Below are positions 21,917 to 46,654 of a DNA stretch of 64,000 nucleotides, in pieces; the first letter of the stretch is position 1; every line of letters starts with the position of its first letter. This DNA is from Wickerhamiella versatilis (Eukaryota). Location: the NCBI GenBank assembly GCA_030867685.1, contig JAQOWU010000007.1, positions 682,001 to 746,000 of the forward strand. The letters run 5' to 3'. Position numbers and translations under genes: made by a program. The notes beneath the pieces are model-generated. The model worked only from the letters and a program-made list of their open reading frames with translations. It did not search any database and was not told the origin of the DNA.

Positions 21917-23737
21917 CTACATCAGAAAGAGTGCTTTTTGGTGAAGAATGCGGATACCAAGAAATTCCCACTCACGTCTAGATATCCACATTTCTTCCCC
22001 AATTTTTAGACGCGAATAAACTGCTGCCCCTTTCCATAGGATCATTGTCGGGTCGAGATCACGGGGAATTGGCAAAACGGCGATGTCACCATGATCCTTT
22101 GTGACCTTTGGAGCCCACATACCTAAGCGATCTGATAGCAAATTATGGAAATCAGGTATATTAGCACCTCCGCCCACTACCAACACATTTTCGTAATATG
22201 TTTTGGGTGAGCCCCCTGATTTTGTCGCCTGTGTTATTGATTCGACAATAGCATGATCAAGGGGGGCAACAACAGCCTTCCGAGGATCAAAAAGCTCCTC
22301 GGATTCAGTCTGAGGGTCTCCTGATTTAGGCCCTTGATTCTGGGTGCTTGACGGCTTGGTGTGAGCAGCATCGGGTGCTGGTGTCGATTTTGAATCTTCA
22401 TCATCAGTTCCTCCAACCTCAGACGCAGGTTCACTTCCAGGTTCTGCCGGTTTATTTGTGTTTGAGCTCAACTCGGATGCGAAAGACTGGCCATTCACAG
22501 CAAGTTGGCCATGACAGACATTGAGTTGGGCATCACTCAACTGATCATCAACGTGGCCTTCGTAAGGGTCGACTGGACGGTGAAAAAGCCTGTGTTTGTA
22601 GATTCTTTTTTGAGAATTAGAAAATAATTGAGGATAGAAAAGCCCAAGGACGGGTAGCATCACTTCATTGTAGACTTTAAAGTCAAATTTTCGTTGACCA
22701 ACCGTAGCCGAATAGAGCTGGATTTCAATATCATCATTATTTGCTGTGCAAAACTTCCTCTTAAGACTGTCCGAATCCTTATATGCCATGTCTTCGATCG
22801 GAAATGCGATCCGCTTAAGAAGCCTTGTGAAGGCCTCCGTAATATCATCACCGCCAATGTCCAAATATACACGCGAATGAGGCACACAAACGCCTTCATC
22901 AATACAAGCTATTTTGGTGGTCTCTGCACCGACATCCACTACACAGGCACTAGAAATTCCTGCCCCAAATGTCGCAGCTACCGATTCCTGCAGAATAAGC
23001 TGATGGCGAAATCCCAAATCGAACAATATTTGCATTATAGTTGAGATTTGGTTTCTATCAAATGTGTCAGGAACAAGAAGAACAGCGTCAGATTCCCTGG
23101 GATCCCTAGGCATGACGCATTGCAAGTATGTCGTGAGGTCATCAATGACTTGTTGAGAGCTAGCGTAGCAAGAATCCTCTGTGAGTCCACCCTGCTGCAG
23201 CAGCCATATTATGTTAAACTTGGAGCTATCAGTATTAAGAGCACCATAACCGTAAAAGGCTTCATCACCGACATCCTCATCATCGACTGATTCTCCTTTT
23301 TGACGTGCATTAAAATTGCTACACATCTCTGTGGCATTTTTAGCAACATTTATTTTATAAAACCGCATTCTTTCGCGAAAATCGGCCTCAGTTACTTCGA
23401 CAGCATGCTGCCACTCTGGAATATCGCCTTCTCTGGGATCTTGCTGCGGCTTCATTTCATCTTTTGGTTTTGCAATACAAAGAGGTATTTCTCGCGGATT
23501 TACATCACTAGCACACCCAATACGAAGGTATCGTGAGCCGAAATGAAGTACCACTGTGGATTCTGGCGTGAACTGCACATCCTCTGGCCGAGGCTGGTTT
23601 GCCAAAAGCTGAGCATCTCGCTTAAGATAACCAGTGAAATAGTTCTTCTGATTGATTGCCGGAACAAGGCGGAAACTTGTTTGACGCTGGCGGTTGTCCA
23701 CTTTATGCACCCGGGCCCCACCGCCTGTTGCTGACAT
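21917..23737 (-). CDS. ARP8: Actin-related protein 8 (INO80 complex)
   Basis: INQKNYFTGYLKRD, HFGSRYLRIG, QESVAATFGAGISSACVVDVGA, PRDLDP..WKG. Confidence 0.93.
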   Translation of the reverse strand: MSATGGGARVHKVDNRQRQTSFRLVPAINQKNYFTGYLKRDAQLLANQPRPEDVQFTPESTVVLHFGSRYLRIGCASDVNPREIPLCIAKPKDEMKPQQDPREGDIPEWQHAVEVTEADFRERMRFYKINVAKNATEMCSNFNARQKGESVDDEDVGDEAFYGYGALNTDSSKFNIIWLLQQGGLTEDSCYASSQQVIDDLTTYLQCVMPRDPRESDAVLLVPDTFDRNQISTIMQILFDLGFRHQLILQESVAATFGAGISSACVVDVGAETTKIACIDEGVCVPHSRVYLDIGGDDITEAFTRLLKRIAFPIEDMAYKDSDSLKRKFCTANNDDIEIQLYSATVGQRKFDFKVYNEVMLPVLGLFYPQLFSNSQKRIYKHRLFHRPVDPYEGHVDDQLSDAQLNVCHGQLAVNGQSFASELSSNTNKPAEPGSEPASEVGGTDDEDSKSTPAPDAAHTKPSSTQNQGPKSGDPQTESEELFDPRKAVVAPLDHAIVESITQATKSGGSPKTYYENVLVVGGGANIPDFHNLLSDRLGMWAPKVTKDHGDIAVLPIPRDLDPTMILWKGAAVYSRLKIGEEMWISRREWEFLGIRILHQKALFLM

Positions 23738-25383: not shown

Positions 25384-26220
25384 CTAATAGTTCTCCAGAG
25401 AGAAGGCATCACTAGGGCGCCAAACTCTGGTGAAATTAGGATAACGACGTTTGTCGCTAAGATGAATTGATGGTGTTGCCGATGTGGATGGAGTTGCAAC
25501 ACTTTCAACACTTGTCAAGCTCGAGAGACTTGAGGAAGCGCTCAAACCAGGTGTTGCTATAGGAGTAACCTCTCTAGGCTTGGCTCTAATAGGCTTGGAC
25601 CGCATCTGCAAAGGACGGACTGGTTTCTGATAGAACGCCTGTGGCGGTGACTGCTCAAGACCCATTTGCATTTTAACCGGAAATAAGAGGGGAGCCAAGA
25701 AGTGGCATAAATCTTCCGTAGTGACTCTCAAATCCCAGTCGAGCAGACAAAGTAGCTGCTTCTCCATCAAATTAACTTCTGATATCGAAAACAATCCCTG
25801 TGTATACCGTGCCCAGTATTTATTTTTGGGGCTGCTATCGTTCACGTTCTTCGCTGCTAGAATAAGAGCAGCCAAGAACACTCTGTGACAAGTGCAGCTC
25901 ATGCCTTTAGCAGATGGAGGGAGCCTCGAGCGCAAGCGGGTTAGATATACCACCGATGTCATCAACGTCGGTGTCTGTACATGAGAACGTGAGACCAAGG
26001 TAAGAATAAATTGTCCCAGAGACTCGAGTGTCGGCTCAGGCGCCGACAGTTGTCCTTTTCCATTAAACTCACCAGCGGGTGAAGTAGGTGGAGTCGCAAG
26101 TGGTGAAGACTCACACCTAATAACTGTAAGTGTCGTCGAAGCGAGATAGGAAATCATCGCCTTAGACACTGGCTGGCGGATGAACACCTCGAGTGCAGAA
26201 GTGTCCATCGAAGATGACAT
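25384..26220 (-). CDS. PCL1: Pho85 cyclin, Pcl1/Pcl2 family
   Basis: ATG 26220; SHVQTPTLM..VYL.RLRS.LP..AKG, HRVFLAALILAAKNVNDSSPKNKYW, EVNLMEKQLL.LLDWDL. Confidence 0.88.
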   Translation of the reverse strand: MSSSMDTSALEVFIRQPVSKAMISYLASTTLTVIRCESSPLATPPTSPAGEFNGKGQLSAPEPTLESLGQFILTLVSRSHVQTPTLMTSVVYLTRLRSRLPPSAKGMSCTCHRVFLAALILAAKNVNDSSPKNKYWARYTQGLFSISEVNLMEKQLLCLLDWDLRVTTEDLCHFLAPLLFPVKMQMGLEQSPPQAFYQKPVRPLQMRSKPIRAKPREVTPIATPGLSASSSLSSLTSVESVATPSTSATPSIHLSDKRRYPNFTRVWRPSDAFSLENY

Positions 26221-26275
26221 CTGCGTCAAACAAAAATATAATATGCAGTTTGTTGGTAATGACAGGAGTGCCTGA

Positions 26276-26730
26276 TTTATATATATATGTAAGGGTCTTC
26301 TGGCGGCTGGAGCCCATGGAGGGAGGGGGCTGCGCGGGTTAGGTTTATGCGTGCGACCATTTTATCAGCCATCCTTTAGCCAATTTAATGACGCGCGCAG
26401 CAAAAGCATTTTTTTTAGGTGTAAACTCAAATATACTAACGTTTATTCAATAGAAGTTGTTTCACATGCGAAGTTAGATATGGGGTGGTTGGATGAGGGG
26501 ACCAGCCACAGTTTCCAAATTTCGCGAGTGCTCACGCGTTCGGCCCTCACCCTAACCCATTATTATATTACCTTCCAGCGTAGGCTTCATAAACCACTTT
26601 TTGCGGATCATGAATTATAAAAAAACTGTCTCATACTATTAATTCACTTTGTCTCCGCGTGGTTATTGCGCTTTTTCTTTGTTGATACTATAGTCCGAAA
26701 TAACTCCAACCCCTTTCAGTGACGCGACAG
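26276..26730 (-). promoter_or_regulatory. PCL1 promoter with TATA and G1/S (SCB/MCB) elements
   Basis: TATA-like tract ~26277-26288; ACGCG at 26391; TTTCGCG (SCB CGCGAAA, reverse) 26520-26526; ACGCGT (MCB) 26534-26539; further CGCG cores near 26656 and 26722. Pcl1/2 genes are known SBF/MBF targets. Confidence 0.6.
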
Positions 26731-31339: not shown

Positions 31340-32668
31340 ATGGAGAACTTTCTTCAGTCAGTGAGCGACAACATAGAAAACATCCCTGGTTATGGAATTG
31401 TATCTGAATTGTATGAAGACAAGGCAGAAGAACACTTTCATACCAAGGATCCATTTTACCAGAAAGTTCCAGGAAAAGACGATAAGACAGTAAGAAGAAG
31501 ACCCCCCGATGGAATTACAGAAAAGCAGAGAAAGCTGTGGAAGAAAATCATCAAACGAGCCTGGTATCACGATCGAAATTTCTGCAATTGTACGCCATTG
31601 GACATAGGACTCGGCATGATCCCCGTTGTAAGTATATTCCCAATTATAGGGCCAATAATTGCATACTACATGCACGGAAAAATGACCAAGCTTGTCATCC
31701 AGGCTGGTGGACCTGCGTCTCTCGTAGCAAAGATGGCGGGAAACGTGGCTTCTGACTTTTTTATCAGTCTTATACCTGTGTTAGGCACAATCTTCTCGTG
31801 GATGTTTGCAGCGTCCACACGCAATGCAGCATTATTTGACACCTGGCTTCGTAAGTCTACTGCGCAATCAAGGAACAAACAAGAAGCTGTGGTCACAGGT
31901 CAAAGACAACAACAAGCAGCTCTACAGGCTGATGTCGCAAGAAGAAGAGCGCAGGGTGGTTATGAGCCTAGTTCTGACCCGCCCCCACCCCAAGCAGCAG
32001 CAAAACCAGGTACCGTGCAACATACTTATCAGCCCACCAATCCCTATGCAACGACAAGTTTTGAATCTAGAGGAATGCGAGAGGCACATCCTGGCTACTC
32101 ACCTGGCGTGAATAACCGTGTTCCATCACGGCCAGCACCACCTCCAGTGCCTGGTGTAAGTCCACGGGTGCCGCCGCAGAGCCCCCCACCACAACCACCC
32201 CCTCATGGTATCCCGCAAAGCCCCAGATATCAGTCGCCTTACTATAATTCGAGACAAGCACCATCGCAAGCCCTGCCTCAACAACCGCTAAATCATCAAT
32301 ACGTGCATGGGTCCCAGCAGGTCCCACAACAACGGTTGACGCCATCACATAGTATCCCCGACCAGGACCCGGAGGATGAGGACCTGGAAATGGCTATGCT
32401 GTTATCACGTCAGACTGCAGAAAAGGACGAGGAAAGAAGAAGGATGGCGGGAATCAATGGGTCTGGTGGCATGTTTCAGACTCAGCCTCCGCTTCACCAG
32501 CATGCATACCATCAGAACCCAAGTCCATCTTCGCATTCCACAACGCATCATGCTGTAGAGTCACAGCATCATAAAGTTCACCGGCGTCCTGTGCCAAATA
32601 TGCACAACTATCCTGCTCCAAACACTTTACACATGCCATCTCCTTCTCTCGATAATACCTATAACTAA
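31340..32668 (+). CDS. DUF4112-like membrane protein with long Pro/Gln-rich tail and UIM
   Basis: ATG 31340; KDPFY, KRAWYHD, PIIGP, KMAGNVASDFFISLIPVLG..TRNAALF; UIM-like EDEDLEMAMLLSRQ. Confidence 0.75.
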   Translation: MENFLQSVSDNIENIPGYGIVSELYEDKAEEHFHTKDPFYQKVPGKDDKTVRRRPPDGITEKQRKLWKKIIKRAWYHDRNFCNCTPLDIGLGMIPVVSIFPIIGPIIAYYMHGKMTKLVIQAGGPASLVAKMAGNVASDFFISLIPVLGTIFSWMFAASTRNAALFDTWLRKSTAQSRNKQEAVVTGQRQQQAALQADVARRRAQGGYEPSSDPPPPQAAAKPGTVQHTYQPTNPYATTSFESRGMREAHPGYSPGVNNRVPSRPAPPPVPGVSPRVPPQSPPPQPPPHGIPQSPRYQSPYYNSRQAPSQALPQQPLNHQYVHGSQQVPQQRLTPSHSIPDQDPEDEDLEMAMLLSRQTAEKDEERRRMAGINGSGGMFQTQPPLHQHAYHQNPSPSSHSTTHHAVESQHHKVHRRPVPNMHNYPAPNTLHMPSPSLDNTYN

Positions 32669-32825: not shown

Positions 32826-33953
32826 TTAAGGGCAGCGGCGGTGAACAACCTCCGGACCAGTCTCGTCGTATTCCTGCTTCGAGATCCACATCTGCTGGAA
32901 TGTTCCAAGACTGGACAGGATGGAGCCACCCATCCAGACCATGTACTTACGCTCAGGAAGAGCAATAAGCTTCGTCTTCATGGAAGATGGAGCCAGAGCA
33001 GTGATCTCCTTCTGGAGACGCTCAGGGATACCATGATACATAGTAGTACCACCAGAAAGAACGATGTTACCGTACAACTCCTTTCTAACATCAACATCAC
33101 ACTTGATGATAGAGTTGTAGGTAGTCTCATGGATACCTGGAGTTTCCAGACCAAGAACGTTGGGGTGGAACAGAGCCTCAGGGCAACGGAAGCGCTCGTT
33201 ACCAATAGTGATAACCTGGCCATCAGGAAGCTCGTAGTTCTTCTCGAGACTAGATGACTGGGCAGCGGTCTGCATCTCCTGCTCGAAGTCGAGGGCGACG
33301 TAGCAAAGCTTCTCCTTGATTTCACGCACGATTTCACGCTCGGCTGAGTTGGTGAAGCTGAAACCACGCTCGGTCAGCAGCTTCATGAGGTACTCAGTAA
33401 GGTCACGGCCGGCCAAGTCAATACGCTTGATGGCATGGGGCATGGAGAAACCGCTATAGATAGGGACGACGTGGGTTACACCATCACCACTGTCTACAAC
33501 AATACCGGTGACACGACCAGTGGCGTACAGAGAAAGCACGGCCTGAATCGAGACGTAGAATGCAGGGGCATTGAAGGTCTCGAAGATGATCTGGGTCATC
33601 TTTTCACGGTTACTCTTAGGGTTAACCGGAGCTTCAGTGAGAAGAATCGGGTGCTCCTCAGGCTGGCGACGAAGCTCATTGAAGAAGGTGTGGTACCAGA
33701 TCTTCTCCATATCGTCCCAGTTGGTGACGATACCGTGTTCAATAGGGTACCTCAAGGTCAAGATACCACGCTTGGACTGAGCATCATCACCTACGTAGGC
33801 GTCCTTTTGGTTCATTCCCACCATCATACCTGGGTGGCGAGGTCGGCCAACTACGGATGGAAAGACAGCACTTGGTGCTTCTTCACCACCGAAACCGGCC
33901 TTACACATACCAGAACCGTTGTCAACAACGAGGGCATAAGAATCGTCTGTCAT
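32826..33953 (-). CDS. ACT1: Actin (divergent, intronless)
   Basis: 375 aa, collinear with conventional actin: [48 protein letters not shown]. Confidence 0.95.
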
Positions 33954-34891
33954 GGTTAGTTCCTTGCTTCTGTCTTAGTCACATTGCGATTGCTGAGCTG
34001 GCCGACAGGGCACCTTAGCCAACGCCACCACAACGCGTTGACTTATAACAGTCAACCGCGTTTAAATGGCAAACTAAGGTGTATGTAGACCAGCCCAAGT
34101 GACCAGGTACAGCCGACACGTCGGCTTGTACTCCAAAAACTTACCCTGCATGGTGGATGATACCTTGGATAGGTGAGATGGGAGAGGAGGCGGGTTTATG
34201 TCAGACAATAGCTAGAGATAGTTGGGTTTGGGTTGAGACTAAAAGTCTCGTCGGCTCGTCGAATTGGTTGCCTGCTCATTCCGCGTGTCAGATTTTGTGG
34301 AATTTCCGTGATTTCTATTAATGATAAAACTCTCCCAGTAGCCAGTAGCGTTTCTAGTGATGGCCATGCTGTAGTGCATATGTAATTTCTTTTATCCAAC
34401 CTTATCTCGGCGTAGACATACCAAGAAATGTCTTGGCATCTGATAAAACATCAGCACGTTGGGCCGACACAGCGATAGGGTTTCATGAGGATATGAGCTC
34501 TATCGACTTCCGTACCCTCGAACAGATTTAAAGGGACTCAAGATGGCGACCTAGCCAGCATTAATCCTGGCCTCCTCCTCCAGGCACTAAGAATTTAGGA
34601 CGTGACAGAACTTTAAGGTTGACTTGCGAGTGTTTACCGCCAGGAGGACTGTTTGAGAGTGTGACAAATAGATCTACAGATGAGAGAATTTATGGCTTCC
34701 GCAAGCGGGAATAGAATGATAGTATGTATGAAAAAAAAATGGTCAGTCACTGGACATGAGTTAAGTAAATCTAGCACTAACACTTCCTCAACCCCTCAAC
34801 CTTTCAAAATATTTAACACTATCTACATGGGCAATACTGCAGCGTTACCGTTCAGCACGTGCTCTGCACTACATGACATAATCCTGTACTT

Positions 34892-35734
34892 ATGGTACTA
34901 CTTGGAGAATCTACAATGAGAGATGGAAGCGTTGTTGCCTCGTCAGTACCATCCGAATCGCCCTTTCAATCTAGGGATATGTCGGATCGCGATAGCAATG
35001 AACCTGACCCGGCCCCAGAGGGCACAGGTGAGGCTGTAGAGCCTATACCAATGAGCGAAATAATTTCACAATTCCGCGAGAGACACATTCAAGATATAAT
35101 GAGGCGTGTCTCTGCTATGCTTGAGAAACTTATAGAAGTAAATGATCAAATTCCCTTTGATGGTAGTTTTCTCACACGCTTTCATAGTCGTACTCCACCT
35201 GGTATCAGTGTGCATGATTATCTTCTTCGTATAATCAAGTTTTGCAGCCTAGATAAGGTTGTTTTACTTGTGCTACTTTATTATATTGACCTCTTATCAC
35301 AAAGCTACCCTGGTTTCAGCATTAATTCCTTAACCGTTCACAGGTTCATTATTACTTCGGTGACCGTCGCTTCAAAAGGCCTTTGTGATGCATTTTGTAC
35401 AAATACTTATTATGCTAAAGTTGGAGGTGTTTCAAAATTGGAACTCAATCTACTCGAGGTGGATTTCCTAACCCGCACAAATTATTCTATTGTTCCGCCG
35501 TACGGAATTTTGAGAGAGATATTTACGAGATTACTGACTCTTCCCGTATCAATTTTAGATCAAGGAGCTGACCAGCAATTGCCTGGACGGTCGCCATCCA
35601 GTAGGGGCAATACACCAGGATCTAGTGATACCACTGGCTCCCAGCATCCTAAATCGGTAAGCAAGCTCCGATCTGTCAGGGGTACCATGAATCGTATGCT
35701 GCATCCGTCAAAGAAGCAAAAAGGTGATGTTTAA
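34892..35734 (+). CDS. PHO80: Pho85 cyclin Pho80
   Basis: LTRFHSRTPPGISVHDYL, SLTVHRFII..VASKGLCDAFCTN.YYAKVGG; start could be 34892, 34916 or 34979. Confidence 0.88.
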   Translation: MVLLGESTMRDGSVVASSVPSESPFQSRDMSDRDSNEPDPAPEGTGEAVEPIPMSEIISQFRERHIQDIMRRVSAMLEKLIEVNDQIPFDGSFLTRFHSRTPPGISVHDYLLRIIKFCSLDKVVLLVLLYYIDLLSQSYPGFSINSLTVHRFIITSVTVASKGLCDAFCTNTYYAKVGGVSKLELNLLEVDFLTRTNYSIVPPYGILREIFTRLLTLPVSILDQGADQQLPGRSPSSRGNTPGSSDTTGSQHPKSVSKLRSVRGTMNRMLHPSKKQKGDV

Positions 35735-36173
35735 CCCAGCGGGCTGGGGATATTAGGCGATGTTGGGGAGGAACGAACCATTCCATTGTAAAAAGTGCAT
35801 TATTTTATGCCTGGAACAGCATTCTTGTTAGGCATTTCGCTTTTCTTTTTTTTTATTTCTCAGGACGTCACAATATGAAATTATTTTGTGAGAACTGAAC
35901 CATGTTCCAGGAACCTGAGTTACACCGATTATAGATTGTAAGGCAAGGGTTCGGAAGAGTAGCTTTTGCATCAAAGTAATTCAGTCGCATACTATCTTAC
36001 TTTTATGAATAAATAGACTAGTAGGATATTCTTTAATGCTTTGAGGAGATATTTATGCTTCTTCTTATAGTTTATGTCTCACCAACTGACAGGAAACTTA
36101 CCCTACCCGAGTAAACTCGGGTCACTCATTCACCCGGGTTTACCCTTACTCTGACTTATTTCTCCACCCCAAT

Positions 36174-39047
36174 ATGCTTCGCAAATCGGTTTTGCGGCTT
36201 AATTGTGCAATAGGTTGTCGCACGTTTGCGGAATCATCAGCACTGAAACCATTGGACACGTATGAGAGACGTCATTTAGGGGCTCAAGGGGTTGAGGTCG
36301 ATGAAATACTAAAAACAGTTGGGTCGACATCAACTGAAGATTTTGTGAAATCGGTGATCCCTGAGGACGTCTATACAAATAGAAAGCTCAGAATTGAACC
36401 GTCTTCAGGTTATAGCGAAAGTGAGCTTTTGCAAAGGCTGGGTAGTTTGGCAAGAAAAAACAATATTTCGGTAAAATCCCTAATTGGTCGTGGATATTAT
36501 GGAACACATTTACCACCGGTTATCCAAAGAAACCTTTTAGAAAACCCGCAATGGTATACTAGCTACACCCCGTATCAAGCAGAAGTTTCTCAAGGCCGTC
36601 TGGAATCCCTCTTAAATTTCCAGACATTGGTCACTGACCTTACTGGCATGGACATTGCGAATTGTTCTCTATTAGACGAAGCTTCTGCAGCAGCAGAAGC
36701 TATGGTACTTTCCTTTTCATCCGCTAAGAAGCGTTCGTATTATTATGTCGATGAGAATACGCTTCCTCAAACAAAGCAGGTCATGCTTGGACGAGCAAAG
36801 GGTCTAGGAATCAAAGTTATATTTGGAATGCCATCATCAGAAGATGAATGGAAAAATACTTGTGGAATACTACTGAGCTATCCTGGGTCAAATGGGAGCA
36901 TCACTGATTTTAGACAACTTTCATTAGATGCCCGTAATCATGGTGCAACTGTATGTGTTACGTCTGATTTGCTTGCGCTCACCATCCTAGAGCCACCTAA
37001 GTGGGCTGACGTTGTGGTCGGATCTGCCCAGCGATTTGGTGTGCCCATGGGATACGGAGGACCACATGCAGCCTTTTTTGCAGCTAGAGATCAATTCAAG
37101 CGACGAATTCCTGGAAGAATCGTAGGTATCACCAAGGATCGACTTGGAAATCAAGCGTACAGGTTGGCCTTGCAAACACGCGAACAGCATATCAGGAGAG
37201 ATAAGGCTACCTCGAATATTTGTACTGCTCAAGCCTTGCTGGCTAATATTTCGGCTATGTACGCATGCTACCATGGTCCTCAAGGACTAACTGATATAGC
37301 AAAACGCGTCCACTCCCTCACATCGACTCTAGCAGCAGTGGTTGAGGCATCGGGATATGAGCTCGTAAACAAGACATTCTTTGACACATTGACGATTCGT
37401 GTATCATCTGTGGATGAATTCCTGGCAAAGGCTAGGAAGAACGGATTTAATCTTTATGGAAAGGGAGATGTCGTTGCTGTTTCCTTGGATGAAACCGTCA
37501 CATCTGAAGACTTTCAAAAGCTTTGCGATCTTTTTGGTGCAAATTGGAAAGAGCCAAAGATGTCTATATCGAGTGAGAGATTATTGTTCCCGCGTACCAG
37601 TCCATTCCTGCGCCATCCAGTATTCAATAGTTATCATTCAGAGACAGAAATGCTGCGCTATATGAATAGGTTACAGTCAAAGGATCTGTCACTGGCCAAT
37701 TCCATGATTCCTCTTGGGTCCTGTACGATGAAACTTAATGCTGCTGTAACAATGCAGGGAATTACTTGGCCGGAGTTCTCAAGTTTGCACCCTTTCGTGC
37801 CAAAAGATCAAGCAGATGGCTACACTGAGCTAATCCAAGAGCTTGAAGCAGATCTAGCGGAGATCACCGGTTTCCATTCTGTCTCAGTGCAGCCAAATTC
37901 GGGAGCTCAAGGAGAATACACTGGCTTACGGGTAATCAGAGCTTACCAGTCCGCGCAGAACGAGGGCCACCGTAATGTATGCCTGATTCCTATTAGTGCA
38001 CATGGAACTAATCCAGCTAGTGCAGCCGTTGCTGGGATGAAGATTGTCGTGGTCAAATGTTTGCCATCGGGTGAACTTGATCTGGAGGATCTTAAGGCGA
38101 AAGCTCAGAAGCACGCAGCAAACTTGTCAGCGTTTATGGTTACCTATCCTTCAACTTTCGGAGTTTATGAACCAGGTATCCGTAAAGCCATCGAAATTGT
38201 CCACGAATTTGGCGGACAGGTATACATGGATGGCGCTAATATGAATGCGCAAGTTGGTCTAACTTCCCCTGGAGATTTAGGCGCTGACGTATGCCATCTA
38301 AATCTACACAAGACATTCTGTATTCCTCACGGTGGTGGTGGTCCTGGAGTTGGTCCGGTATGCGTCGCCAAACATCTGTCACCATATCTTCCCGGAGCCT
38401 CCTCAGGGGTCGAACCAACCAGTGCAGCCCCATTTGGATCAGCAAGCATTTTGAGTATATCTTGGGCATACATCAAGCTCATGGGACCACAAGGTTTGAA
38501 GAATGCGTCGATCATGTCTATGCTCAATGCGAACTATATGGCCAGCCGCTTGAGAAAGCATTACAAGCTGGCTTATGAAGGCCGCTGTGCACACGAATTC
38601 ATTTTAGATCTTCGTCCATTCAAGGCTGCTGGTGTGGAAGCTGCAGATGTGGCTAAAAGACTCCAAGATTATGGATTCCACGCGCCCACAATGTCGTGGC
38701 CAGTCGCCGGAACGCTCATGATAGAGCCCACAGAGTCTGAATCTAAGGCTGAACTCGATCGTTTCTGTGATGCTATGATAAGTATTCGCCAAGAGATCCA
38801 AGAAATTTTGGATGGTAAGGTGGATGTAAAAGCTTCAGTACTCGCTAATGCGCCACATACGGCAGAAGATCTCCTGCAAAGTGAATGGGATCGTTCTTAC
38901 ACTCGCGAGCAAGCTGCATATCCATTGGAATTTGTCAAGAAATCCAAGTTTTGGCCAAGTGTGACTCGAGTTGACGATTCTTACGGCGACATGAATTTGT
39001 TCTGTACCTGTAGCCCCGTTGAGGAATATTCCAGCCTCGAGGATTAG
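36174..39047 (+). CDS. GCV2: Glycine decarboxylase P-protein, mitochondrial
   Basis: [38 protein letters not shown]-lysine motif [31 protein letters not shown]. Confidence 0.97.
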
Positions 39048-39260
39048 TTGACTAGTTAGCGAATTGATTTTTTGTAGTTTTGGATTGAGAAAGTAATACC
39101 TGACGTTGTCTAAAAATTTTGCTGCTGTGACCTCTAATTACCGTTCGTAGTTTCTACTTAAAATGACCAGCCTAGATATTTGAATTTTCTCTATTTTTAC
39201 CTTTTAATAAAAAGAGGCCAGACAAATATGCATTTTACATGTTACGTGCTTTTTTTCTTA

Positions 39261-39572
39261 GGAGGGATTCCCTCCATGAGCCACTTAATGTCCTGATACT
39301 TCACCAGACCTTTCAGACCCCGAGTAGAGCCAAACCAAGCCTCCTTGATGCGGAAATAGAGCTCGTACGTTGTTCTATTATGCTAGAGTGCGAAATATCG
39401 CGCAACTACAATATTAGCAACTTATTATGTACGAGACAGGTCTTAGCAGGACTGCCACCTTGGCAGCACTGGATAGGGACGTGCCTCCACCTTTCACTGG
39501 CTTTTTTACTCTGAGGCTTGCTCTAGCACGGCCTGAGGGTGGCTCAACAAGAACCGTGACTCTGAGCGCCTG
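39261..39572 (-). ncRNA. Putative structured non-coding RNA of unassigned class
   Basis: Several mutually compatible nested helices inside a 690-bp convergent gap (see findings); G-U pairing slightly favours the minus strand; no credible ORF. Confidence 0.5.
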
Positions 39573-39737
39573 TAAGCTTTGTGTGAAAAAAGAATAACTT
39601 AGTCATTATTTGCCTTATATACGTATCACTGTAGACATACCAATTATTCAAAGCGTGCACTGTCGTAAACGAATTAGTTTCTCGAGATATCATGTATGCC
39701 TGAGAGAATATATTGATAAATTAAAGACAGTAAATCA

Positions 39738-42700
39738 TCAGTTTTTGTGCTCGACTGGTGTAGGATTCCAGCCACCGACAGCACCACTAACAACTATAGG
39801 CGCCATCAAAGCAGTCAAACTAGAAGACCTACTCTGTCTCGCCGAGCTATCAAAGGACGGTCTCAAATGAGTGATCGACGGCGTATGTCGTACTATCATC
39901 TCCTTAGTCTGGTGAATCGGAAACAGCTGTTGCAGTCTGCCTCCACGAAGACGCTTGATCAATCGTAACTCACCAATCGACTGCTCAATGCCAGGTGCCC
40001 AGATATAATCGTATCCTGGCGACTTCTCGTCAATATTATTCACATTTTGTTCCTTGGGAGGTGGATTCTTCCCTTGTACCTTGTAAAACAGCCAAACACA
40101 GCCAAAAGCCATTGCGTCCCATAGCCATCCTACCGGAGTCATGAGCCACAAGAAGCCTGTATTAACTCTATCAATGATCCACAGGAAAAAGTTTACTAGA
40201 CGTCGGGGATAAATGACCATAACCCAACTGTCCGGGATCACTTTGATCAGCATTGCAACAGGAATGGATACTAGTCCGCAAATTATACCGGTGGCCCACA
40301 TCGCGGGTCTCTTTGTATTTTGGTGGCCATTACAACTGTTGAAACAAGTAACCTGGAACACTTTGCCTCCTAGGAACATAATCAAAATTTCAACCCCACC
40401 AATGATAATGGTAATCAACCAGAAGAAGATGTTACGCTGTGCCCCAGAGAGTAAGTTCATCTTATTATCAATCCGCCGGTTGACGAACATATTGAAAAAT
40501 TGCATCCACACAAACACATTAAACACCATTGCTGTTAACACTTGTCCATCTCGGTCATATGCCTGGTCCACAGCATCCTCGCTAAGGTAGCTTGGGTAGT
40601 CGGCTTTGCTGGTGGGATAGTTAAACAACTGACGACCAGCAAAGTGTAGAACGAATGTTACAGCCAGTTGGTAGATAGTCTGTCCAAATATCATTTTCCA
40701 CATTGTTGGTGTGATCAAACTTACTTTACGCGAATCAGGCTTGCGGTAAAGACATTCCTCTGTTGGGGCGTCCGTAGCCAGTGCCAACGCAGCTAAAGTG
40801 TCCATGATTAAATTTACCCAGAGTAGCTGTACGGAGGTGAGAACCGACTCGTTGAATCGGGACGCAACCGAAGAGACAAATGTAAGCGCCACAGCTGTTA
40901 CATTGACCGTGAGCTGGAATTGTAGGAACTTTTTTACCGCATCGTTAACTGTGCGTCCCCACATCATAGCGTTCACAATCGAAGAGAAGTTATCATCCAT
41001 AATGATGATATCCGAAGCCTCTTTCGCTACCTCAGTACCTGAAATACCCATACTAAAACCAACGTCTGCTAGCTTCAAAGCAGGAGCATCATTAGTACCA
41101 TCTCCCGTGACCGCCACAGTTTCACCGTGAAGCTTTAGATATTCGACGAGCCTCCGTTTGTCTTCGGGACTAGAGCGAGCCAAAACCCTTAATCTTGGCA
41201 CAACATTCGCCATCTCATTGTTCGAGAGTTTTCTGAATTCAGGACCCTCAAAAACGCAAGTCCTTGCATCTTCTGCACTAACAATTCCGGCATTGATCGC
41301 AATCGCGCGAGCGGTACGAAGGTTATCACCTGTGACCATTCGAACGCAAACACCAGCCCGAAGACATTGTGCCACTGCATGTGCTACTCCCGGCCTCAGA
41401 GGGTCCTTTATACCGAACAAGCCTAAGAACGTCAAACTTGATATGTCGATGTCTTCTGGTTTAAGGCCTTCTATTCCCTTAGATGCTGTGAAATCTTTGT
41501 ATCCAATTCCAATAACCCGAAGCGCATCATCTGCATAATCATCTAATCGGTGCAGAAACACGTTTCGCGACTCAGGCGTGAACTCAGTACCGGAGTCTTT
41601 CAAAGCAGTGGAGGAATTCATGATAATTTCTGCTGCGCCCTTAACAAGCATGCGGTATCCAGACCCATGTTTTCTAATGGTGACCATATACTTTCTCGCT
41701 GAATCAAACGGCAATACGAACTCGCAAGGCCGCTCATCGCGGTATGTTTTTAGTGTTCCTGAACTCACACCCAAAAATCGCCTGGCAAAACCGACGAGGG
41801 CCATTTCAGTTTTTGAACCAATAAGTGTATCAGGATTATCTACCTGCTCATAAACAGAAGAATTGAGGCATATTGAGTCTGCTATAACCTCACCAAACTC
41901 CTTATCATCGAAGGTGGGCTCGTGGTCTTGCCCTTCTTTCCATGTCTCGGTTCCAATACTTGAGGCAACCACGGTCATCTTGTTCTCGGTAAGTGTTCCA
42001 GTTTTATCAGAACAAACCGTCGTGGCATTTCCCATGGTCTCACAGCTCTTAAGCACACGTACTAAACAATTATCCTTGATCATGCGTTTAGTCGCAAATG
42101 CAAGCGCAAGCGTTACCGCGAGGGGGAGACCCTCTGGCACGGCAACAACAATAATAGTAATAGCAATAATAAAAATGTTCATGAAAAGATTTCCCTTCAT
42201 TGCTGAAGTGACATGTCTTGGGTCATCAGCGTAGAAAACACCCTCCGACACCTTGATTAGATAGTGACCTGTTACTCGTACACAAAATCGAATAAATAAC
42301 ACAATAAACAGAATTATTGCAGACCATACGCCAAAGATGGCTATTCCATCGGCAATGCGGTTCAACTTTTCTTGCAATGGGGTGACCTCAGATCCTCCTT
42401 GGAGTGACATAAGAGTGCGCCCATACATACTACTCTGACCAACAGCAGTAACCATGTAGACACCACTTCCTTGCATTACTTTAGAGCCAGATATCATGAC
42501 GCAATCAATTTTCTTGTCATTCGTCTGACCCCCATCCATTAGTTTGAGGGCATTAAATGCGGACACTTTTACAAGATTATCTGACTCTCCAGTAACAGAC
42601 GACTCGTCGCATTGGACGTCATTAGCCTCAAGCAGAACACCATCAACTGGGAGCACGTCTCCGGGTTGTATCACGGCCAAGTCACCGACCTCGAGCTCTC

Positions 42701-43367
42701 GTATATTTATTTGACATTTCTGGCCATTGCGTACCACTTCTACGAGACGGTCCTCTTTTTTGCGATTCAGTTTAGCAAACTGCCGCTCTTTTTGCCAATC
42801 ATTTACACTTCCTACGAGCGTAACAACAATGACAGCAACAAGAATAGCAAGGCCTTCAACCCAATCAGTAGGATAGTCTCCATCTGGATGAGGTTGGCCA
42901 ACAGCCTCATATATACCCAAGGACAACGCTATAATTGCGGCTATAACAAGTACGATCAGGACCTTGTCATTGAGCGTCATAAGTACTATTTTGAAAAATC
43001 CATCCAAGTCCTTCTCTGGGATTTCATTACGTCCGTACCTCTTTTCACGATGGCCTAGCTCCGCTTCGGAAAGCTGGGCATCAACTAATCCTTGATGTGG
43101 GTCACTACCTAGTCTGTGTGAGAGACCACTCACACCTCCCATCACCTTGATCATAAACGGATTCTTCGGATCTACGATGCAATCCAATTGCCCAGGCGAG
43201 AGGCTGAAAACACCATCGCCACTCGTATCCCCGTGATCATTGAAAAGCGATTCAGCGTCATGTAAACGATCCTCTGCCTCCGACGATACATCCTTTGAAG
43301 CGTCCTTCCCATTTACTTCAATCTTGGGAGTATGCCGAGTTTCGACAGCGGGTGTAGCGTCTGACAT
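39738..43367 (-). CDS. PMC1: Vacuolar Ca2+ P-type ATPase (PMCA type)
   Basis: TGES, VAVPEGLPLAVTLALA, CSDKTGTLT, TGDGTNDAPAL, KFLQFQLTVN, QLLWVNLIMDT. Confidence 0.96.
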   Translation of the reverse strand: MSDATPAVETRHTPKIEVNGKDASKDVSSEAEDRLHDAESLFNDHGDTSGDGVFSLSPGQLDCIVDPKNPFMIKVMGGVSGLSHRLGSDPHQGLVDAQLSEAELGHREKRYGRNEIPEKDLDGFFKIVLMTLNDKVLIVLVIAAIIALSLGIYEAVGQPHPDGDYPTDWVEGLAILVAVIVVTLVGSVNDWQKERQFAKLNRKKEDRLVEVVRNGQKCQINIRELEVGDLAVIQPGDVLPVDGVLLEANDVQCDESSVTGESDNLVKVSAFNALKLMDGGQTNDKKIDCVMISGSKVMQGSGVYMVTAVGQSSMYGRTLMSLQGGSEVTPLQEKLNRIADGIAIFGVWSAIILFIVLFIRFCVRVTGHYLIKVSEGVFYADDPRHVTSAMKGNLFMNIFIIAITIIVVAVPEGLPLAVTLALAFATKRMIKDNCLVRVLKSCETMGNATTVCSDKTGTLTENKMTVVASSIGTETWKEGQDHEPTFDDKEFGEVIADSICLNSSVYEQVDNPDTLIGSKTEMALVGFARRFLGVSSGTLKTYRDERPCEFVLPFDSARKYMVTIRKHGSGYRMLVKGAAEIIMNSSTALKDSGTEFTPESRNVFLHRLDDYADDALRVIGIGYKDFTASKGIEGLKPEDIDISSLTFLGLFGIKDPLRPGVAHAVAQCLRAGVCVRMVTGDNLRTARAIAINAGIVSAEDARTCVFEGPEFRKLSNNEMANVVPRLRVLARSSPEDKRRLVEYLKLHGETVAVTGDGTNDAPALKLADVGFSMGISGTEVAKEASDIIIMDDNFSSIVNAMMWGRTVNDAVKKFLQFQLTVNVTAVALTFVSSVASRFNESVLTSVQLLWVNLIMDTLAALALATDAPTEECLYRKPDSRKVSLITPTMWKMIFGQTIYQLAVTFVLHFAGRQLFNYPTSKADYPSYLSEDAVDQAYDRDGQVLTAMVFNVFVWMQFFNMFVNRRIDNKMNLLSGAQRNIFFWLITIIIGGVEILIMFLGGKVFQVTCFNSCNGHQNTKRPAMWATGIICGLVSIPVAMLIKVIPDSWVMVIYPRRLVNFFLWIIDRVNTGFLWLMTPVGWLWDAMAFGCVWLFYKVQGKNPPPKEQNVNNIDEKSPGYDYIWAPGIEQSIGELRLIKRLRGGRLQQLFPIHQTKEMIVRHTPSITHLRPSFDSSARQSRSSSLTALMAPIVVSGAVGGWNPTPVEHKN

Positions 43368-43511
43368 GCCTCACCCAAAGTGAAGAAAATCGACAGTTCT
43401 CAATAGGAGAGATAGTGTTGAGGATTAGGGTAAGAGTGGCTGAGTTAAATTAACATACGTCAAAGGTCGGGCTAAGTCCTACATGTACATAATTATAAGG
43501 AAGAATTAGGC

Positions 43512-44480
43512 TTAAAACATTATTGTAGCCATGAGGCATAGATGGTCGCTTGGATATCCACCACGAGGCAGAGAACCGCTGATATCTGAAGACGATGGCA
43601 AGGTCAGGAGCTCACGCACTGTAACACACCCGCCTTTGATCAAAATATAGTCCAAAGTAGCCTTGAAATCATCAGTCCAAGTTGTAAATTCGGGTACTGG
43701 ATCGTAAGCAGATATCATAGTAAGAGGCTTGGCTTCGAGGATTTGTGAAAGCGCCCGCTCCGGATCGGCGAGTTTTGACATTCGGGCATTTGCCTGCGGA
43801 GCACTGGTTGGCGAAATATCCAAGCCAAATCCCTTGGTATTAGCACTCCGCCGTAGTTCGTTTTTCGCAGACTCAGTTAGTTTCTTTCCCGTGGCGAGTA
43901 GGTAGGCAGCTGAGTCTGGAGTTGAGTTGAAATCGCCAGCAACTATTACCTCACTAAAGCCCTCTATGGCTTTTAGCAGACATAGCATTTGCCGTGCTCT
44001 CTCATAATCTGCATCCGGATGCCAGTACAAATGTGTTGTTGCGACTAAGAATGTGCCATGGTAATCTTCGAATTCAATCAGAGCTGCTAAATTTCCTGTC
44101 TCAACCTGCGAGATAGGTTCTGAGATATTGTCAAAGTCTAGATGCCACTTTTTTTTTGGGACAAACTTGTTTCGGAGCCATGCAATCAGGAGTCCGTGTC
44201 GCTTACCAGGTGTATGCTGAAACCACGCATCCATTCCCAGATTTTTCAAAACTCCTAGCCACCACTCCTTCAGGTATACATCCACCTCTTGAAAAACAGC
44301 GATGTCGGGACTATAAGCAGCAAGTTCCGGTCCAAACGCTTTAGAGCGAAAGCCCCATTTTATGCATTGACCATTGGTGGGATAGCGTTCACGCTTTGCC
44401 AGTGACTGTGCGAGAACATTATAGCTTAGAACCCTGATTATTCTGTTTTTCGCCTTGATATCCCTGATAGTCGCTTGCAT
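43512..44480 (-). CDS. NGL2: Ccr4/Ngl-family EEP RNase (Ngl2/3-like)
   Basis: ATG 44480; SYNVLAQSL, FQEVD, TTHLYWHP..ERARQ, AGDFNS, LDYI, PSDH. Confidence 0.8.
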   Translation of the reverse strand: MQATIRDIKAKNRIIRVLSYNVLAQSLAKRERYPTNGQCIKWGFRSKAFGPELAAYSPDIAVFQEVDVYLKEWWLGVLKNLGMDAWFQHTPGKRHGLLIAWLRNKFVPKKKWHLDFDNISEPISQVETGNLAALIEFEDYHGTFLVATTHLYWHPDADYERARQMLCLLKAIEGFSEVIVAGDFNSTPDSAAYLLATGKKLTESAKNELRRSANTKGFGLDISPTSAPQANARMSKLADPERALSQILEAKPLTMISAYDPVPEFTTWTDDFKATLDYILIKGGCVTVRELLTLPSSSDISGSLPRGGYPSDHLCLMATIMF

Positions 44481-44527
44481 CAATCGACAATGCCAAGAAT
44501 CCCTGTTACATAATTGTATATCTAGTT

Positions 44528-45163
44528 ATGTCGAAGGCAGATTTTTTGGAGGCCGCGCTGGCCTGTGATGCTCTTCGCTTCGGAAGCTATACCCTTAAAA
44601 GTGGAAGAAAAAGCCCGTATTTTTTCAATCTGGGAAGCTTTTGTTCCGGCACTGCGCTTTCCACCCTCGCCGAGGCTTATGCACGTACAATTCTTTCGTC
44701 GGGCATTAAATTCGATGTATTATTTGGCCCAGCTTACAAGGGTATCCCCCTTGCGGCTCTTGTGGTTGCAAAAATCGCAGAAATTGAACCATCAAAGGGT
44801 CACCTTCAATATTCTTTCAACCGGAAAGAAGCCAAGGATCACGGTGAGGGAGGCAATATTGTAGGTGCCCCTTTGAAGGGACGTCGGGTGCTTGTCATAG
44901 ACGATGTTATGACCGCCGGAACTGCAGTAACAGAGGCACAGGATATCATTACCTCTGCAGGCGGCACACTTATCGGAATTATCGTGGCCCTGGATCGACA
45001 GGAACGTATGACTGAAGAGCCAAAATCCACCGTTCAACTGGTTTCTGAGAAGTTTGGCATCAAGGTTTTTTCCATCATTAACCTTGATGATATCATCCAC
45101 TTTCTGAAGAACCCTGAGGAAGTTGAGGCTGTTAAAGCGTACAAAGCTCAATATGGTGCTTGA
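44528..45163 (+). CDS. URA5: Orotate phosphoribosyltransferase
   Basis: LKSGRKSPYFFN, FGPAYKGIP, NRKEAKDHGEGG, IDDVMTAGTA. Confidence 0.97.
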   Translation: MSKADFLEAALACDALRFGSYTLKSGRKSPYFFNLGSFCSGTALSTLAEAYARTILSSGIKFDVLFGPAYKGIPLAALVVAKIAEIEPSKGHLQYSFNRKEAKDHGEGGNIVGAPLKGRRVLVIDDVMTAGTAVTEAQDIITSAGGTLIGIIVALDRQERMTEEPKSTVQLVSEKFGIKVFSIINLDDIIHFLKNPEEVEAVKAYKAQYGA

Positions 45164-45387
45164 TGTATATAAATTAATGTGATTCTTTTTGCTGCCTACG
45201 CAACCACTAGTAGAGGGAAAGTAATAATCTCAGTGTTGCTTCAGGACAAATTTATATACTCAAGCTGTGGGATGAGAAAGAAGGGGATATCTCTATCTCG
45301 CCCCCTCATATGATAATTGACATTAGAAACTAGATGCTCTCTATAACTTATAAATATAAATGAGATAAAATGGGCTTGCTCACAAAC

Positions 45388-46197
45388 TTATTCAATCACA
45401 CGTACTAATGCCCAGGCCGCACCAGCTGCAAACCCACCGGTAAAGAGCATGCTAAAGCCATTGACCCAGCGCTGATGGTAGCTGACATCCGTGCCAAGGC
45501 TGGCAATAGTTTTAACCCACCCAAACAAAAACAAGGTCACGGCCATTAGGATGCATGATGCAATAAATCCGGTCTCAACAACATGCGCAAAGAAGTAGGG
45601 AATCAGAGGTACAAATCCACCAAAAAAGTAAGAAAGTCCGATAGTAAGGGCACTGGTAAATTCACGGTCGGTGGCGGGCTCCTCACAGCCCCGAACAACC
45701 TTCACCATGAAGTGGCTTAAAATATCATCGTTTCTCTCCAGATCCGCCACCATTACCTTGATGGTTTCCGTGGAAATTTTGTATTCGGAGAGGGCCTCAT
45801 GGATATCCTCAATGATACTCTCTGGGTTTTCCTCGTAGTTCTGACGCTCTCTCACCAATTGGCCCTCGAAGTACTCAGCCTCACTTTTTGCTGCCAAGAA
45901 ACCTCCGAGACCCATGGAAATCGCACCAGAGACCAGCTCGGCCATGCCACCCGTGATAACTAGCTTTGAATCACCCAATGATGATAGGCCTGCGGTCAAT
46001 GCAAACGGAACCGTGAGGCCATCACTGAGACCAATAATAACATCTGATACTACACGGGGATTGGACACACCCTCATACGACATCATGGATGAGAAGGAGC
46101 TACTATTATCATCCGTAGCGTTGTAGCCATCAGGCGAGGACCTTGGAAGTAGGGGCTTATTTTCACCAAACAAGAGCTTTTTCAGAGTAACAATCAT
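45388..46197 (-). CDS. CCC1: Vacuolar Fe/Mn transporter (VIT1/Ccc1)
   Basis: SDVIIGLSDGLTVPFALTAGLS, ELVSGAISMGLGG, YFFGGFVPLIPY. Confidence 0.95.
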   Translation of the reverse strand: MIVTLKKLLFGENKPLLPRSSPDGYNATDDNSSSFSSMMSYEGVSNPRVVSDVIIGLSDGLTVPFALTAGLSSLGDSKLVITGGMAELVSGAISMGLGGFLAAKSEAEYFEGQLVRERQNYEENPESIIEDIHEALSEYKISTETIKVMVADLERNDDILSHFMVKVVRGCEEPATDREFTSALTIGLSYFFGGFVPLIPYFFAHVVETGFIASCILMAVTLFLFGWVKTIASLGTDVSYHQRWVNGFSMLFTGGFAAGAAWALVRVIE

Positions 46198-46654
46198 AAT
46201 TAGAATTGGCTAGGCTCCTGTGAATATAATAAGGTAGAGGTCAGAGAATTTGGCTCAAGCTTCCAATTCGATAGCGACGTTACACTTATTTTTTATTTCT
46301 TACTTTTCTCTACATATAATATAACCCCACTAGTTACAAGGGTTAGGGTGTACTTAAAACGTCAGATATACATAATGTCCCATTGGGCAATCAAATTAGT
46401 GGCTCATCATTGGTCCATAGGGGGTCTAGGCTGACCTCCCGCTTAACATTCTGATTTGGCGGTAAACTTGCCTGAATTGGTATCAGCATTACGGTTTATA
46501 GCAGTTTATGCATTCAAAACGGGCTATGAATACTTGAATCCAATCTCAGAATACCTCATTAAACTCAGTTTCGCCTTATAGAGCTCTAGCTTTTGATAAT
46601 AGGGTTATGCAACATGGGTTTCGCTAATTTTATTTTATTCAATCGCTCAGTCCG

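What the first reader, a model, noticed from the sequence alone, without database searches (positions are those of the whole stretch)
32826..33953. Unusually divergent actin ending in Cys-Pro instead of the near-invariant Cys-Phe
Seen: the last codon is CCT (Pro), two changes from any Phe codon, so a single-base error is unlikely. A by-eye alignment to S. cerevisiae Act1 from memory gives roughly 65 differences (~82% identity), low for a fungal conventional actin. Changes hit normally fixed surface sites: D24E/D25E, R28S, Q41P, G48N, H87Y, V96R/A97Q, D211E (latrunculin pocket), P307H, A310P, P332L, S338M, F375P (profilin and filament contacts). The nucleotide-binding core is intact and codon usage looks strongly biased, suggesting high expression. 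It is either a fast-evolving sole actin or a specialised second actin (inference).
Basis: partly seen in the sequence, partly recalled or inferred. Interest (0 to 1): 0.7.

Follow-up and report, generated by a model that had tools for sequence, protein, structure and literature searches.

The report
Fast-evolving yeast actin ending in Cys-Pro
This is the ordinary housekeeping actin gene of a yeast from the Wickerhamiella/Starmerella group, a lineage known to evolve unusually fast, and its odd Cys-Pro ending is real but shared with its relatives rather than a mark of a special second actin.

Summary
A 375-codon actin ORF lies at 32826-33953 on the minus strand and ends Cys-Pro-stop (TGC CCT TAA). 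It shows 63 differences from S. cerevisiae actin over 371 aligned residues (about 83% identity, hand count).

The feature is not peculiar to this gene. [quoted passage not shown] Eleven of 212 retrieved actins end in Cys-Pro, and all eleven are these nearest relatives. Of 36 residues absent from seven canonical actins, 24 are shared with S. bombicola actin.

Relative-rate tests show 2.4-3.4 times more lineage-specific changes than in Yarrowia actin. Beta-tubulin in the same window is accelerated even more. A 2025 paper names the W/S clade as one of three faster-evolving yeast lineages.

The gene has the strongest codon bias of 34 long ORFs in the window. It probably has a 198-nt 5' intron, so the protein would start MQDDSY rather than MTDDSY.

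Best reading: the ACT1 orthologue of a fast-evolving lineage. Whether it is the only actin could not be tested, because no genome was held. Interest is modest.

The parts
32826..33946 (-). Actin exon 2: codon 3 (last two bases) to Pro375, plus stop TAA at 32826-32828. The last sense codon, CCT, is at 32829-32831.
   Evidence: ORF listing and translation. Pfam Actin 468 bits, residues 3-374. 1yag alignment. Sequence read.
33947..34144 (-). Probable 198-nt intron. Donor GTAAGT at 34144-34139, branch-site-like ACTAAC at 33960-33955, acceptor CAG ending at 33947. It contains the in-frame ATG (33953-33951) that the plain ORF call uses as its start.
   Evidence: Sequence. It is one of only 3 GTAAGT...ACTAAC...AG arrangements on both strands of the 64-kb window. 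Splicing keeps the frame and gives MQDDSY, like S. bombicola MQDDQY. No RNA evidence was obtained.
34145..34151 (-). Probable exon 1, coding part: ATGCAGG (Met, Gln and the first base of Asp3), with A at -3.
   Evidence: Sequence; inference from the splice signals and relatives' N-termini.

Best explanation
This is the conventional, highly expressed actin gene (the ACT1 orthologue) of a budding yeast in the Wickerhamiella/Starmerella clade of the Dipodascales. By sequence it is a normal filament-forming actin: 375 residues, no insertions or deletions relative to S. cerevisiae Act1, and an intact ATP/Mg site. It has collected about three times more amino-acid changes than the actins of neighbouring yeasts, because the whole lineage evolves fast. 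Most of the unusual residues, including the C-terminal Phe375-to-Pro change, arose before this species split from the Starmerella group and have been kept since. The Cys-Pro end is therefore a tolerated or compensated clade trait, not an error and not a mark of a second isoform. The changes lie mostly in subdomains 1 and 3, the barbed-end half, and in the D-loop. The D-loop meets the C-terminus of the next subunit in the filament. I infer that the longitudinal contact and the barbed-end groove have been remodelled together. The gene most likely has a short first exon (ATGCAGG) and a 198-nt intron, so the mature protein starts Met-Gln-Asp-Asp.
For: Shown by tool results:
- Pfam Actin full length, 468 bits.
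- The best solved relative is S. cerevisiae actin: 727.6 bits, gapless over 4-374.
- Nearest named proteins are S. bombicola actin (90%), W. sorbophila actin (89%) and Yarrowia actin (82-83%).
- ML tree: the W/S actins form a clade with 100/99 support, and window + P0052 are sister to the S. bombicola group with 100/98 support.
- Endings of the 212 retrieved proteins: 181 Cys-Phe, 11 Cys-Pro, 2 Cys-Tyr, 1 Cys-Gln, 1 Cys-Leu, 16 truncated or mis-predicted. All 11 Cys-Pro proteins are the query and its closest relatives. W. sorbophila keeps Phe; Yarrowia has Tyr.
- 24 of 36 residues absent from 7 canonical comparators are shared with S. bombicola. Only 6 of 36 are confined to the window and its 99% twin.
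- Tajima-type relative-rate tests: 31-37 against 10-15 unique changes, p 0.0002-0.007 in all 6 comparisons for the window. The S. bombicola actin is likewise significant, at p<0.01 in all 6 of its comparisons. Excess is milder in the other three W/S actins: P0085 reached p<0.05 in 6 of 6 comparisons, W. sorbophila and P0084 in 5 of 6 each.
- Beta-tubulin in the same window is 59-63% identical to non-W/S fungal beta-tubulins, which are 73-98% identical to each other. Unique changes: 85-128 against 12-33. So the acceleration is not specific to actin.
- Codon bias is the strongest of 34 long ORFs.
- 31 of 36 unusual residues fall in subdomains 1+3 (66% expected; binomial p 0.007).

From papers (passages read):
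- The W/S clade is one of three faster-evolving lineages of Saccharomycotina, with reduced DNA-repair gene sets. Starmerella is slightly faster than Wickerhamiella (PMC12629084).
- In S. cerevisiae, deleting Phe375 gives a temperature-sensitive but viable strain (PMC12081870, discussion).
- Phe375 meets the D-loop of the neighbouring subunit and is more exposed in yeast F-actin than in skeletal F-actin (bioRxiv 10.1101/2024.09.13.612689).
Against: - No whole genome was available, so a second, canonical actin elsewhere is not excluded by any search.
- No RNA data were obtained: the run finder did not answer in 10 tries. High expression rests on codon bias alone, and the intron rests on splice signals and relatives' N-termini alone.
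- The organism is inferred only from protein similarity to two named species.
- Subdomain boundaries used for the enrichment test are recalled, not taken from a tool.
- Whether Pro375 arose once with a reversal in W. sorbophila, or more than once, is unresolved because the basal W/S node is an open fork.
- A genome-wide rate increase explains many changes. It does not by itself explain why an almost invariant terminal residue changed by two bases and then stayed fixed.
Confidence: 0.85

Rival explanations
1. The changes at the C-terminus, the D-loop and the barbed-end groove are adaptive rather than a by-product of a high mutation rate. They might reflect co-evolution with the clade's profilin, cofilin, formins or WASP. 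Or they might lower binding of natural groove-binding toxins such as cytochalasins, which these flower- and insect-associated yeasts could meet.
For: - Phe375 is one of four residues with the largest buried area on cytochalasin D binding, and it flips to form the drug pocket (PMC12304888, passages).
- Phe375, Tyr143 and Phe169 line the groove where Las17/WASP polyproline peptides dock in models (PMC12081870).
- Lys373, Cys374 and Phe375 are part of the profilin-covered pocket (PMC9705415).
- Pro375 is kept in all 11 Cys-Pro actins despite 81-99% divergence among them.
- Unusual residues are enriched in subdomains 1+3.
Against: - No test of selection was possible, because there is no coding DNA of relatives.
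- Beta-tubulin is accelerated even more, and the clade is fast genome-wide, so no special force on actin is needed.
- W. sorbophila shares the D-loop changes but keeps Phe375, so the changes are not a single package.
- The ecological link to toxins is my inference only.
Confidence: 0.1
2. It is a specialised second actin isoform. A canonical Cys-Phe actin elsewhere in the genome does the housekeeping work.
For: Only that the genome could not be searched, and that the sequence is unusually divergent for a yeast actin.
Against: - It has the strongest codon bias of 34 long ORFs.
- The same type is the protein annotated simply as 'actin' in S. bombicola and W. sorbophila.
- The tree follows the expected species relationships.
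- It has an ACT1-like 5' intron.
- Only one conventional actin occurs in the 64-kb window; the other hit is Arp8.
- From general knowledge (recalled), budding yeasts normally carry a single actin gene.
Confidence: 0.04
3. The Cys-Pro ending is a sequencing or assembly error at the last codon.
For: None found.
Against: - Two base changes would be needed.
- A 99%-identical protein from another assembly has the identical ending, as do 9 further relatives.
- The exact protein is seen on 6 contigs.
Confidence: 0.01

Closest known systems
S. cerevisiae Act1 (PDB 1yag) and other conventional fungal actins
   Same: 375 residues, a gapless alignment over 4-374, about 83% identity, an intact nucleotide site, Cys374, and a short first exon followed by an intron near codon 3-4. 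The S. cerevisiae intron position is recalled.
   Different: 63 differences over 371 aligned residues. These include D-loop changes (Q41P, I43M, G48N, S52A), groove and C-terminal changes (I341M, A347S, T350G, K373R, F375P), and Y87/F91, which occur only in this species and its 99% twin.
Starmerella bombicola actin (UniProt A0A0U1YLH0) and unnamed Starmerella-type actins
   Same: 90-91% identity and the same HRRCP ending. They share 24 of the 36 residues absent from canonical actins, and the N-terminus MQDD matches the spliced model here.
   Different: This actin keeps Pro102, Glu117, Gln246 and Tyr337 where the Starmerella group changed. It has its own Y87, F91, Q97, T327 and V369.
Wickerhamiella sorbophila actin (XP_024665774)
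   Same: 89% identity, the same D-loop ([12 protein letters not shown]), His307, Arg373, and membership of the same strongly supported clade.
   Different: It retains the canonical terminal Phe, and Pro332, Ser338 and Ile341.
Yarrowia lipolytica actin (ACT_YARLI)
   Same: Same order of yeasts, and its C-terminal residue is also not Phe: it ends Cys-Tyr.
   Different: 82-83% identity. It evolves about three times more slowly than the window's actin in relative-rate tests.
Arp1/centractin and other actin-related proteins
   Same: They share the actin fold family (Pfam PF00022).
   Different: None appears among the 60 PDB matches shown. The only Arp in the window is Arp8, at 24% identity over partial matches.

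Membership tests
Conventional actin (ACT1 orthologue) | Full-length match to the Pfam Actin model | tested here: met
   PF00022: 468.2 bits, E 2.3e-140, residues 3-374 on profile positions 2-409 of 410.
Conventional actin (ACT1 orthologue) | About 80% or more identity to conventional actins across eukaryotes, same length, no indels | tested here: met
   83% to S. cerevisiae actin over a gapless 4-374 (hand count). 79-84% to 7 canonical comparators, including a primate cytoplasmic actin.
Conventional actin (ACT1 orthologue) | Nucleotide- and cation-binding residues (S14, G15, K18, Q137, D154, G156-G158, H161, K213, E214, G301-T303, K336) and His73 | tested here: met
   All are present in the translation. 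Most are invariant columns in the 27-sequence alignment. The residue list itself is recalled.
Conventional actin (ACT1 orthologue) | C-terminal Cys374-Phe375 | tested here: not met
   Cys374 is present, but residue 375 is Pro (CCT). 181 of the 212 retrieved proteins end Cys-Phe. This feature is near-invariant rather than defining: Yarrowia actin ends Cys-Tyr.
Conventional actin (ACT1 orthologue) | Groups with actins of related species, as the species tree predicts | tested here: met
   The W/S actin clade has 100/99 support and is nested beside an unnamed canonical yeast actin and Yarrowia.
Conventional actin (ACT1 orthologue) | Only conventional actin gene in the genome | not testable with these tools
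   No genome is held for this window. Within the window there is one actin plus Arp8.
Conventional actin (ACT1 orthologue) | High expression | tested here: inconclusive
   The effective number of codons is 40.2, the lowest of 34 ORFs. No RNA data were obtained; the run finder did not complete in 10 tries.
Conventional actin (ACT1 orthologue) | Polymerises into filaments | not testable with these tools
   Needs biochemistry. The structure prediction gave an unusable model, mean pLDDT 35.6.
Arp1/centractin | Closer to Arp1 than to actin | tested here: not met
   All 60 PDB matches shown are conventional actins or actin chimeras.
Gene of a Wickerhamiella/Starmerella faster-evolving-lineage genome | Nearest named relatives in the clade, and raised substitution rate in conserved proteins | tested here: met
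   Nearest named actins are S. bombicola and W. sorbophila. Among the beta-tubulin hits at 62-72% identity that are not long fused proteins, Starmerella bacillaris is one of the named ones. Relative-rate excess is seen in actin and beta-tubulin. The lineage is described in PMC12629084.

The most novel reading that the evidence does not exclude
The Phe375-to-Pro change, together with the altered D-loop and barbed-end groove, is a fixed functional redesign of the actin longitudinal contact and ligand groove in a whole yeast clade. It would change profilin, WASP or formin handling, and would make these yeasts naturally less sensitive to groove-binding toxins such as cytochalasin D. It would also show that the 'invariant' actin C-terminus can be replaced when its partners co-evolve.
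Probability: 0.1. Interest if true: 0.6.

Novelty: new member of a known kind. Interest (0 to 1): 0.3.

Why it matters
Actin is among the most conserved eukaryotic proteins, and its last residue is almost always Phe. That residue lies in the groove where the neighbouring subunit's D-loop, profilin, WASP-type peptides and cytochalasin D bind.

A whole clade of living yeasts with Pro at that position is a natural experiment on how much the barbed-end groove can change. Together with the still more divergent beta-tubulin next door, it shows how far a faster-evolving lineage can push core cytoskeletal proteins.

Practically, it warns that ACT1 used as a 'conserved' marker or qPCR reference in Starmerella and Wickerhamiella is atypical. 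It also warns that plain ORF-based gene calls mis-start this gene.

The gene itself is the expected housekeeping actin. The clade's fast evolution is already published, and Cys-Pro actin sequences are already in public databases.

Tried and rejected
- Whole-genome search for further actins: no genome is held.
- Public RNA/DNA runs, to test expression and the splice junction: the run finder did not answer in 10 tries of the same request. Read laying was therefore never used.
- Metagenome scan with a degenerate pattern for ...GPE[VI]VHRRCP-stop: 0 matches.
- The search for related loci in metagenomes: 583 of the 591 stretches that matched a pattern encode a relative, and 80 were kept. The best is only 85% identical and is a canonical Cys-Phe yeast actin with its own 5' intron. 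No W/S DNA was available for synteny or dN/dS.
- Structure prediction from a 27-sequence alignment: mean pLDDT 35.6, pTM 0.31. The model was unusable and no fold search was run on it.
- Cluster look-up for names of the unnamed Cys-Pro actins: none of them carried a name of its own; within the S. bombicola cluster a 283-aa member (P0213) is labelled as from a Macrococcus record, and the P0102 cluster holds a member named 'actin-related protein'.
- Synteny with the S. cerevisiae ACT1-YPT1-TUB2 neighbourhood (recalled): beta-tubulin lies 14 kb away. The ORFs I checked between the two genes are a PHO80-type cyclin, glycine decarboxylase, a P-type ATPase, an endonuclease/exonuclease/phosphatase-family (Pfam Exo_endo_phos) protein, orotate phosphoribosyltransferase, a VIT-family protein and a ceramidase, with no Rab. 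This is only weak support.
- Literature: searches for Starmerella + Wickerhamiella + actin (59 papers, 15 listed) and ACT1 + Starmerella (24 papers, 12 listed). In the listings I saw, and in the one paper I opened, actin is not the subject; the opened paper uses ACT1 as a qPCR reference. I found no paper discussing the Cys-Pro terminus. Supplements were not seen.
- Arp1 reading: rejected.
- Sequencing-error reading: rejected.

Full report
**What is there**

The window holds a 375-codon ORF at 32826-33953 on the minus strand. It matches the Pfam Actin model over its full length: 468 bits, residues 3-374. Its best solved relative is S. cerevisiae actin, PDB 1yag, at 727.6 bits. That alignment runs 4-374 against 4-374 without a gap.

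By my hand count the alignment has 63 differences in 371 columns, or 83% identity.

The gene ends CGC CGC TGC CCT TAA. The last residue is therefore Pro, and its codon is two changes away from either Phe codon. The nucleotide-site residues are intact.

**It is not an error**

A 99%-identical protein from another assembly (P0052) ends the same way. The exact protein is recorded on six contigs.

**Gene model**

The plain ORF start is probably not the true start. Upstream on the coding strand lies CACC ATG CAG G followed by GTAAGT at 34144. An ACTAAC sits at 33960-33955 and a CAG ends at 33947.

Splicing 34145 to 33946 removes 198 nt and keeps the frame. The N-terminus changes from MTDDSY to MQDDSY. 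The S. bombicola actin and four of its five close relatives compared here begin MQ[DE][DE]QY; the fifth, P0073, starts differently.

The donor/branch/acceptor arrangement is one of only three in the whole window on both strands. A tiny first exon followed by an intron is also the structure of S. cerevisiae ACT1 (recalled). I have no RNA evidence, because the run finder did not answer in ten tries.

**Who its relatives are**

Among the best 120 of 8000 scored database proteins, the closest are:
- unnamed proteins at 99% and 91% identity;
- S. bombicola actin at 90%;
- W. sorbophila actin at 89%;
- Yarrowia actin at 83%.

A maximum-likelihood tree of 30 actins puts the window's protein inside a clade with W. 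sorbophila and the Starmerella-type actins (support 100/99). Within it, the window's protein is sister to the S. bombicola group (100/98). An unnamed canonical yeast actin and Yarrowia lie just outside. This is the placement expected for the ACT1 orthologue of a Wickerhamiella/Starmerella (W/S) clade yeast.

All 60 PDB matches shown are conventional actins or actin chimeras, with no Arp1 among them.

**The odd residues are clade traits**

The 212 proteins retrieved in two searches end as follows:

| Ending | Number |
|---|---|
| Cys-Phe | 181 |
| Cys-Pro | 11 |
| Cys-Tyr | 2 |
| Cys-Gln | 1 |
| Cys-Leu | 1 |
| Truncated or mis-predicted | 16 |

The 11 Cys-Pro proteins are exactly the query and its closest relatives. 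W. sorbophila keeps Phe, and Yarrowia has Tyr.

36 positions carry a residue seen in none of seven canonical comparators. Of these, 24 are shared with S. bombicola actin, including E24, E25, R96, L332, M338, M341, R373 and P375. Only six are confined to the window and its 99% twin: T2, Y87, F91, Q97, T327 and V369. T2 disappears under the spliced model.

The D-loop changes ([12 protein letters not shown]) are also present in W. sorbophila, which still has Phe375. The changes therefore accumulated stepwise.

**Why it is so divergent**

Relative-rate tests were run against three outgroups:
- The window's actin has 31-37 lineage-specific changes against 10-15 in Yarrowia or the canonical yeast actin P0102 (p 0.0002-0.007, all 6 comparisons).
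- S. bombicola behaves the same way.
- P0085, W. sorbophila and P0084 show a milder excess, at p<0.05 in 6, 5 and 5 of 6 comparisons respectively.

The acceleration is not specific to actin. The beta-tubulin gene at 47924-49288 is only 59-63% identical to non-W/S fungal beta-tubulins. Those are 73-98% identical to one another. It has 85-128 lineage-specific changes against 12-33 in the comparators. Starmerella bacillaris beta-tubulin behaves alike.

This fits a 2025 paper, of which I read passages. It names the W/S clade as one of three faster-evolving lineages of budding yeasts, with reduced DNA-repair gene sets. It reports Starmerella as slightly faster than Wickerhamiella, and an onset about 253 million years ago (PMC12629084).

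**Main or second actin**

The gene has the strongest codon bias of the 34 ORFs of 250 aa or more in the window: effective number of codons 40.2, against 46.6-61 for the others. That points to high expression.

The only other actin-family gene in the window is Arp8. The same actin type is the one annotated as 'actin' in the two named relatives.

I could not search the genome, so 'sole actin' rests on these indirect points. It also rests on the general rule, recalled, that budding yeasts have one actin gene.

**How it most likely works**

By sequence it is a normal polymerising actin. The unusual residues concentrate in subdomains 1 and 3, with 31 of 36 against 66% expected (p 0.007). They avoid subdomain 4, with 2 of 36. 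The subdomain limits are recalled.

Passages I read say the following about Phe375:
- It contacts the neighbouring subunit's D-loop in skeletal F-actin, and is more exposed in yeast F-actin because of residue 43.
- It partly fills the hydrophobic cleft and is a main cytochalasin D contact.
- Its backbone is held by Arg116. Arg116 is conserved here.
- It lies in the pocket covered by profilin.
- It lies near docked WASP polyproline peptides.
- Deleting it in S. cerevisiae is viable but temperature-sensitive.

I infer that Pro375 is tolerated because the backbone and carboxylate contact remains, and because the D-loop (P41, M43, N48, A52) and groove residues (M341, S347, G350) changed with it.

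Whether this is drift under a high mutation rate or adaptation is open. I rate adaptation, including reduced binding of groove ligands, at about 0.1.

**Verdict**

The explanation is ordinary: this is the housekeeping actin of a lineage already known to evolve fast, and its strange ending is shared with relatives whose sequences are public. In my searches I found no paper that discusses the Cys-Pro terminus. A small piece of new description therefore remains, along with a corrected gene model.

Noticed in passing
window 47924-49288 (+): This beta-tubulin gene (best PDB match yeast Tub2, 608 bits) is only 59-63% identical to non-W/S fungal beta-tubulins, which are 73-98% identical among themselves. 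It is only 70% identical to its nearest database relatives. That is relatively more divergent than the actin, and its codon bias is weak (effective number of codons 56.5).
   Followed up: partly
window 21917-23737 (-): A 606-aa actin-related protein. Its best solved relatives are Arp8 of the INO80 complex (254.7 bits). It lies about 9 kb from the actin gene.
   Followed up: partly
window 32826-49288: Actin and beta-tubulin lie 14 kb apart, recalling the S. cerevisiae ACT1-YPT1-TUB2 neighbourhood (recalled). No Rab gene was found among the ORFs checked between them. Those ORFs are a cyclin, glycine decarboxylase P protein, a P-type ATPase, a protein of the endonuclease/exonuclease/phosphatase family (Pfam Exo_endo_phos), orotate phosphoribosyltransferase, a VIT-family protein and a ceramidase.
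   Followed up: partly
protein P0213 (cluster of S. bombicola actin): A 283-aa partial actin in the Starmerella actin cluster (90% identity level) is labelled in NCBI as coming from a Macrococcus caseolyticus record. This looks like yeast contamination of a bacterial assembly.
   Followed up: no
window 26126-26453 (+) and 51829-51416 (-): These are the only two other GTAAGT...ACTAAC...AG arrangements in the window. The first has a full TACTAAC branch site and may be a real intron. Neither was checked against a gene model.
   Followed up: no
protein P0073: A Starmerella-type actin with an animal-like N-terminus (MCDDDVAALV) on a 1.3-kb contig. It is possibly a chimeric assembly of two actins.
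   Followed up: no
window 31340-32668 (+) and 34892-35734 (+): The actin's immediate neighbours are a DUF4112 protein with a long Pro/Gln-rich tail and a PHO80-type cyclin. The cyclin is transcribed divergently from the actin promoter region.
   Followed up: no
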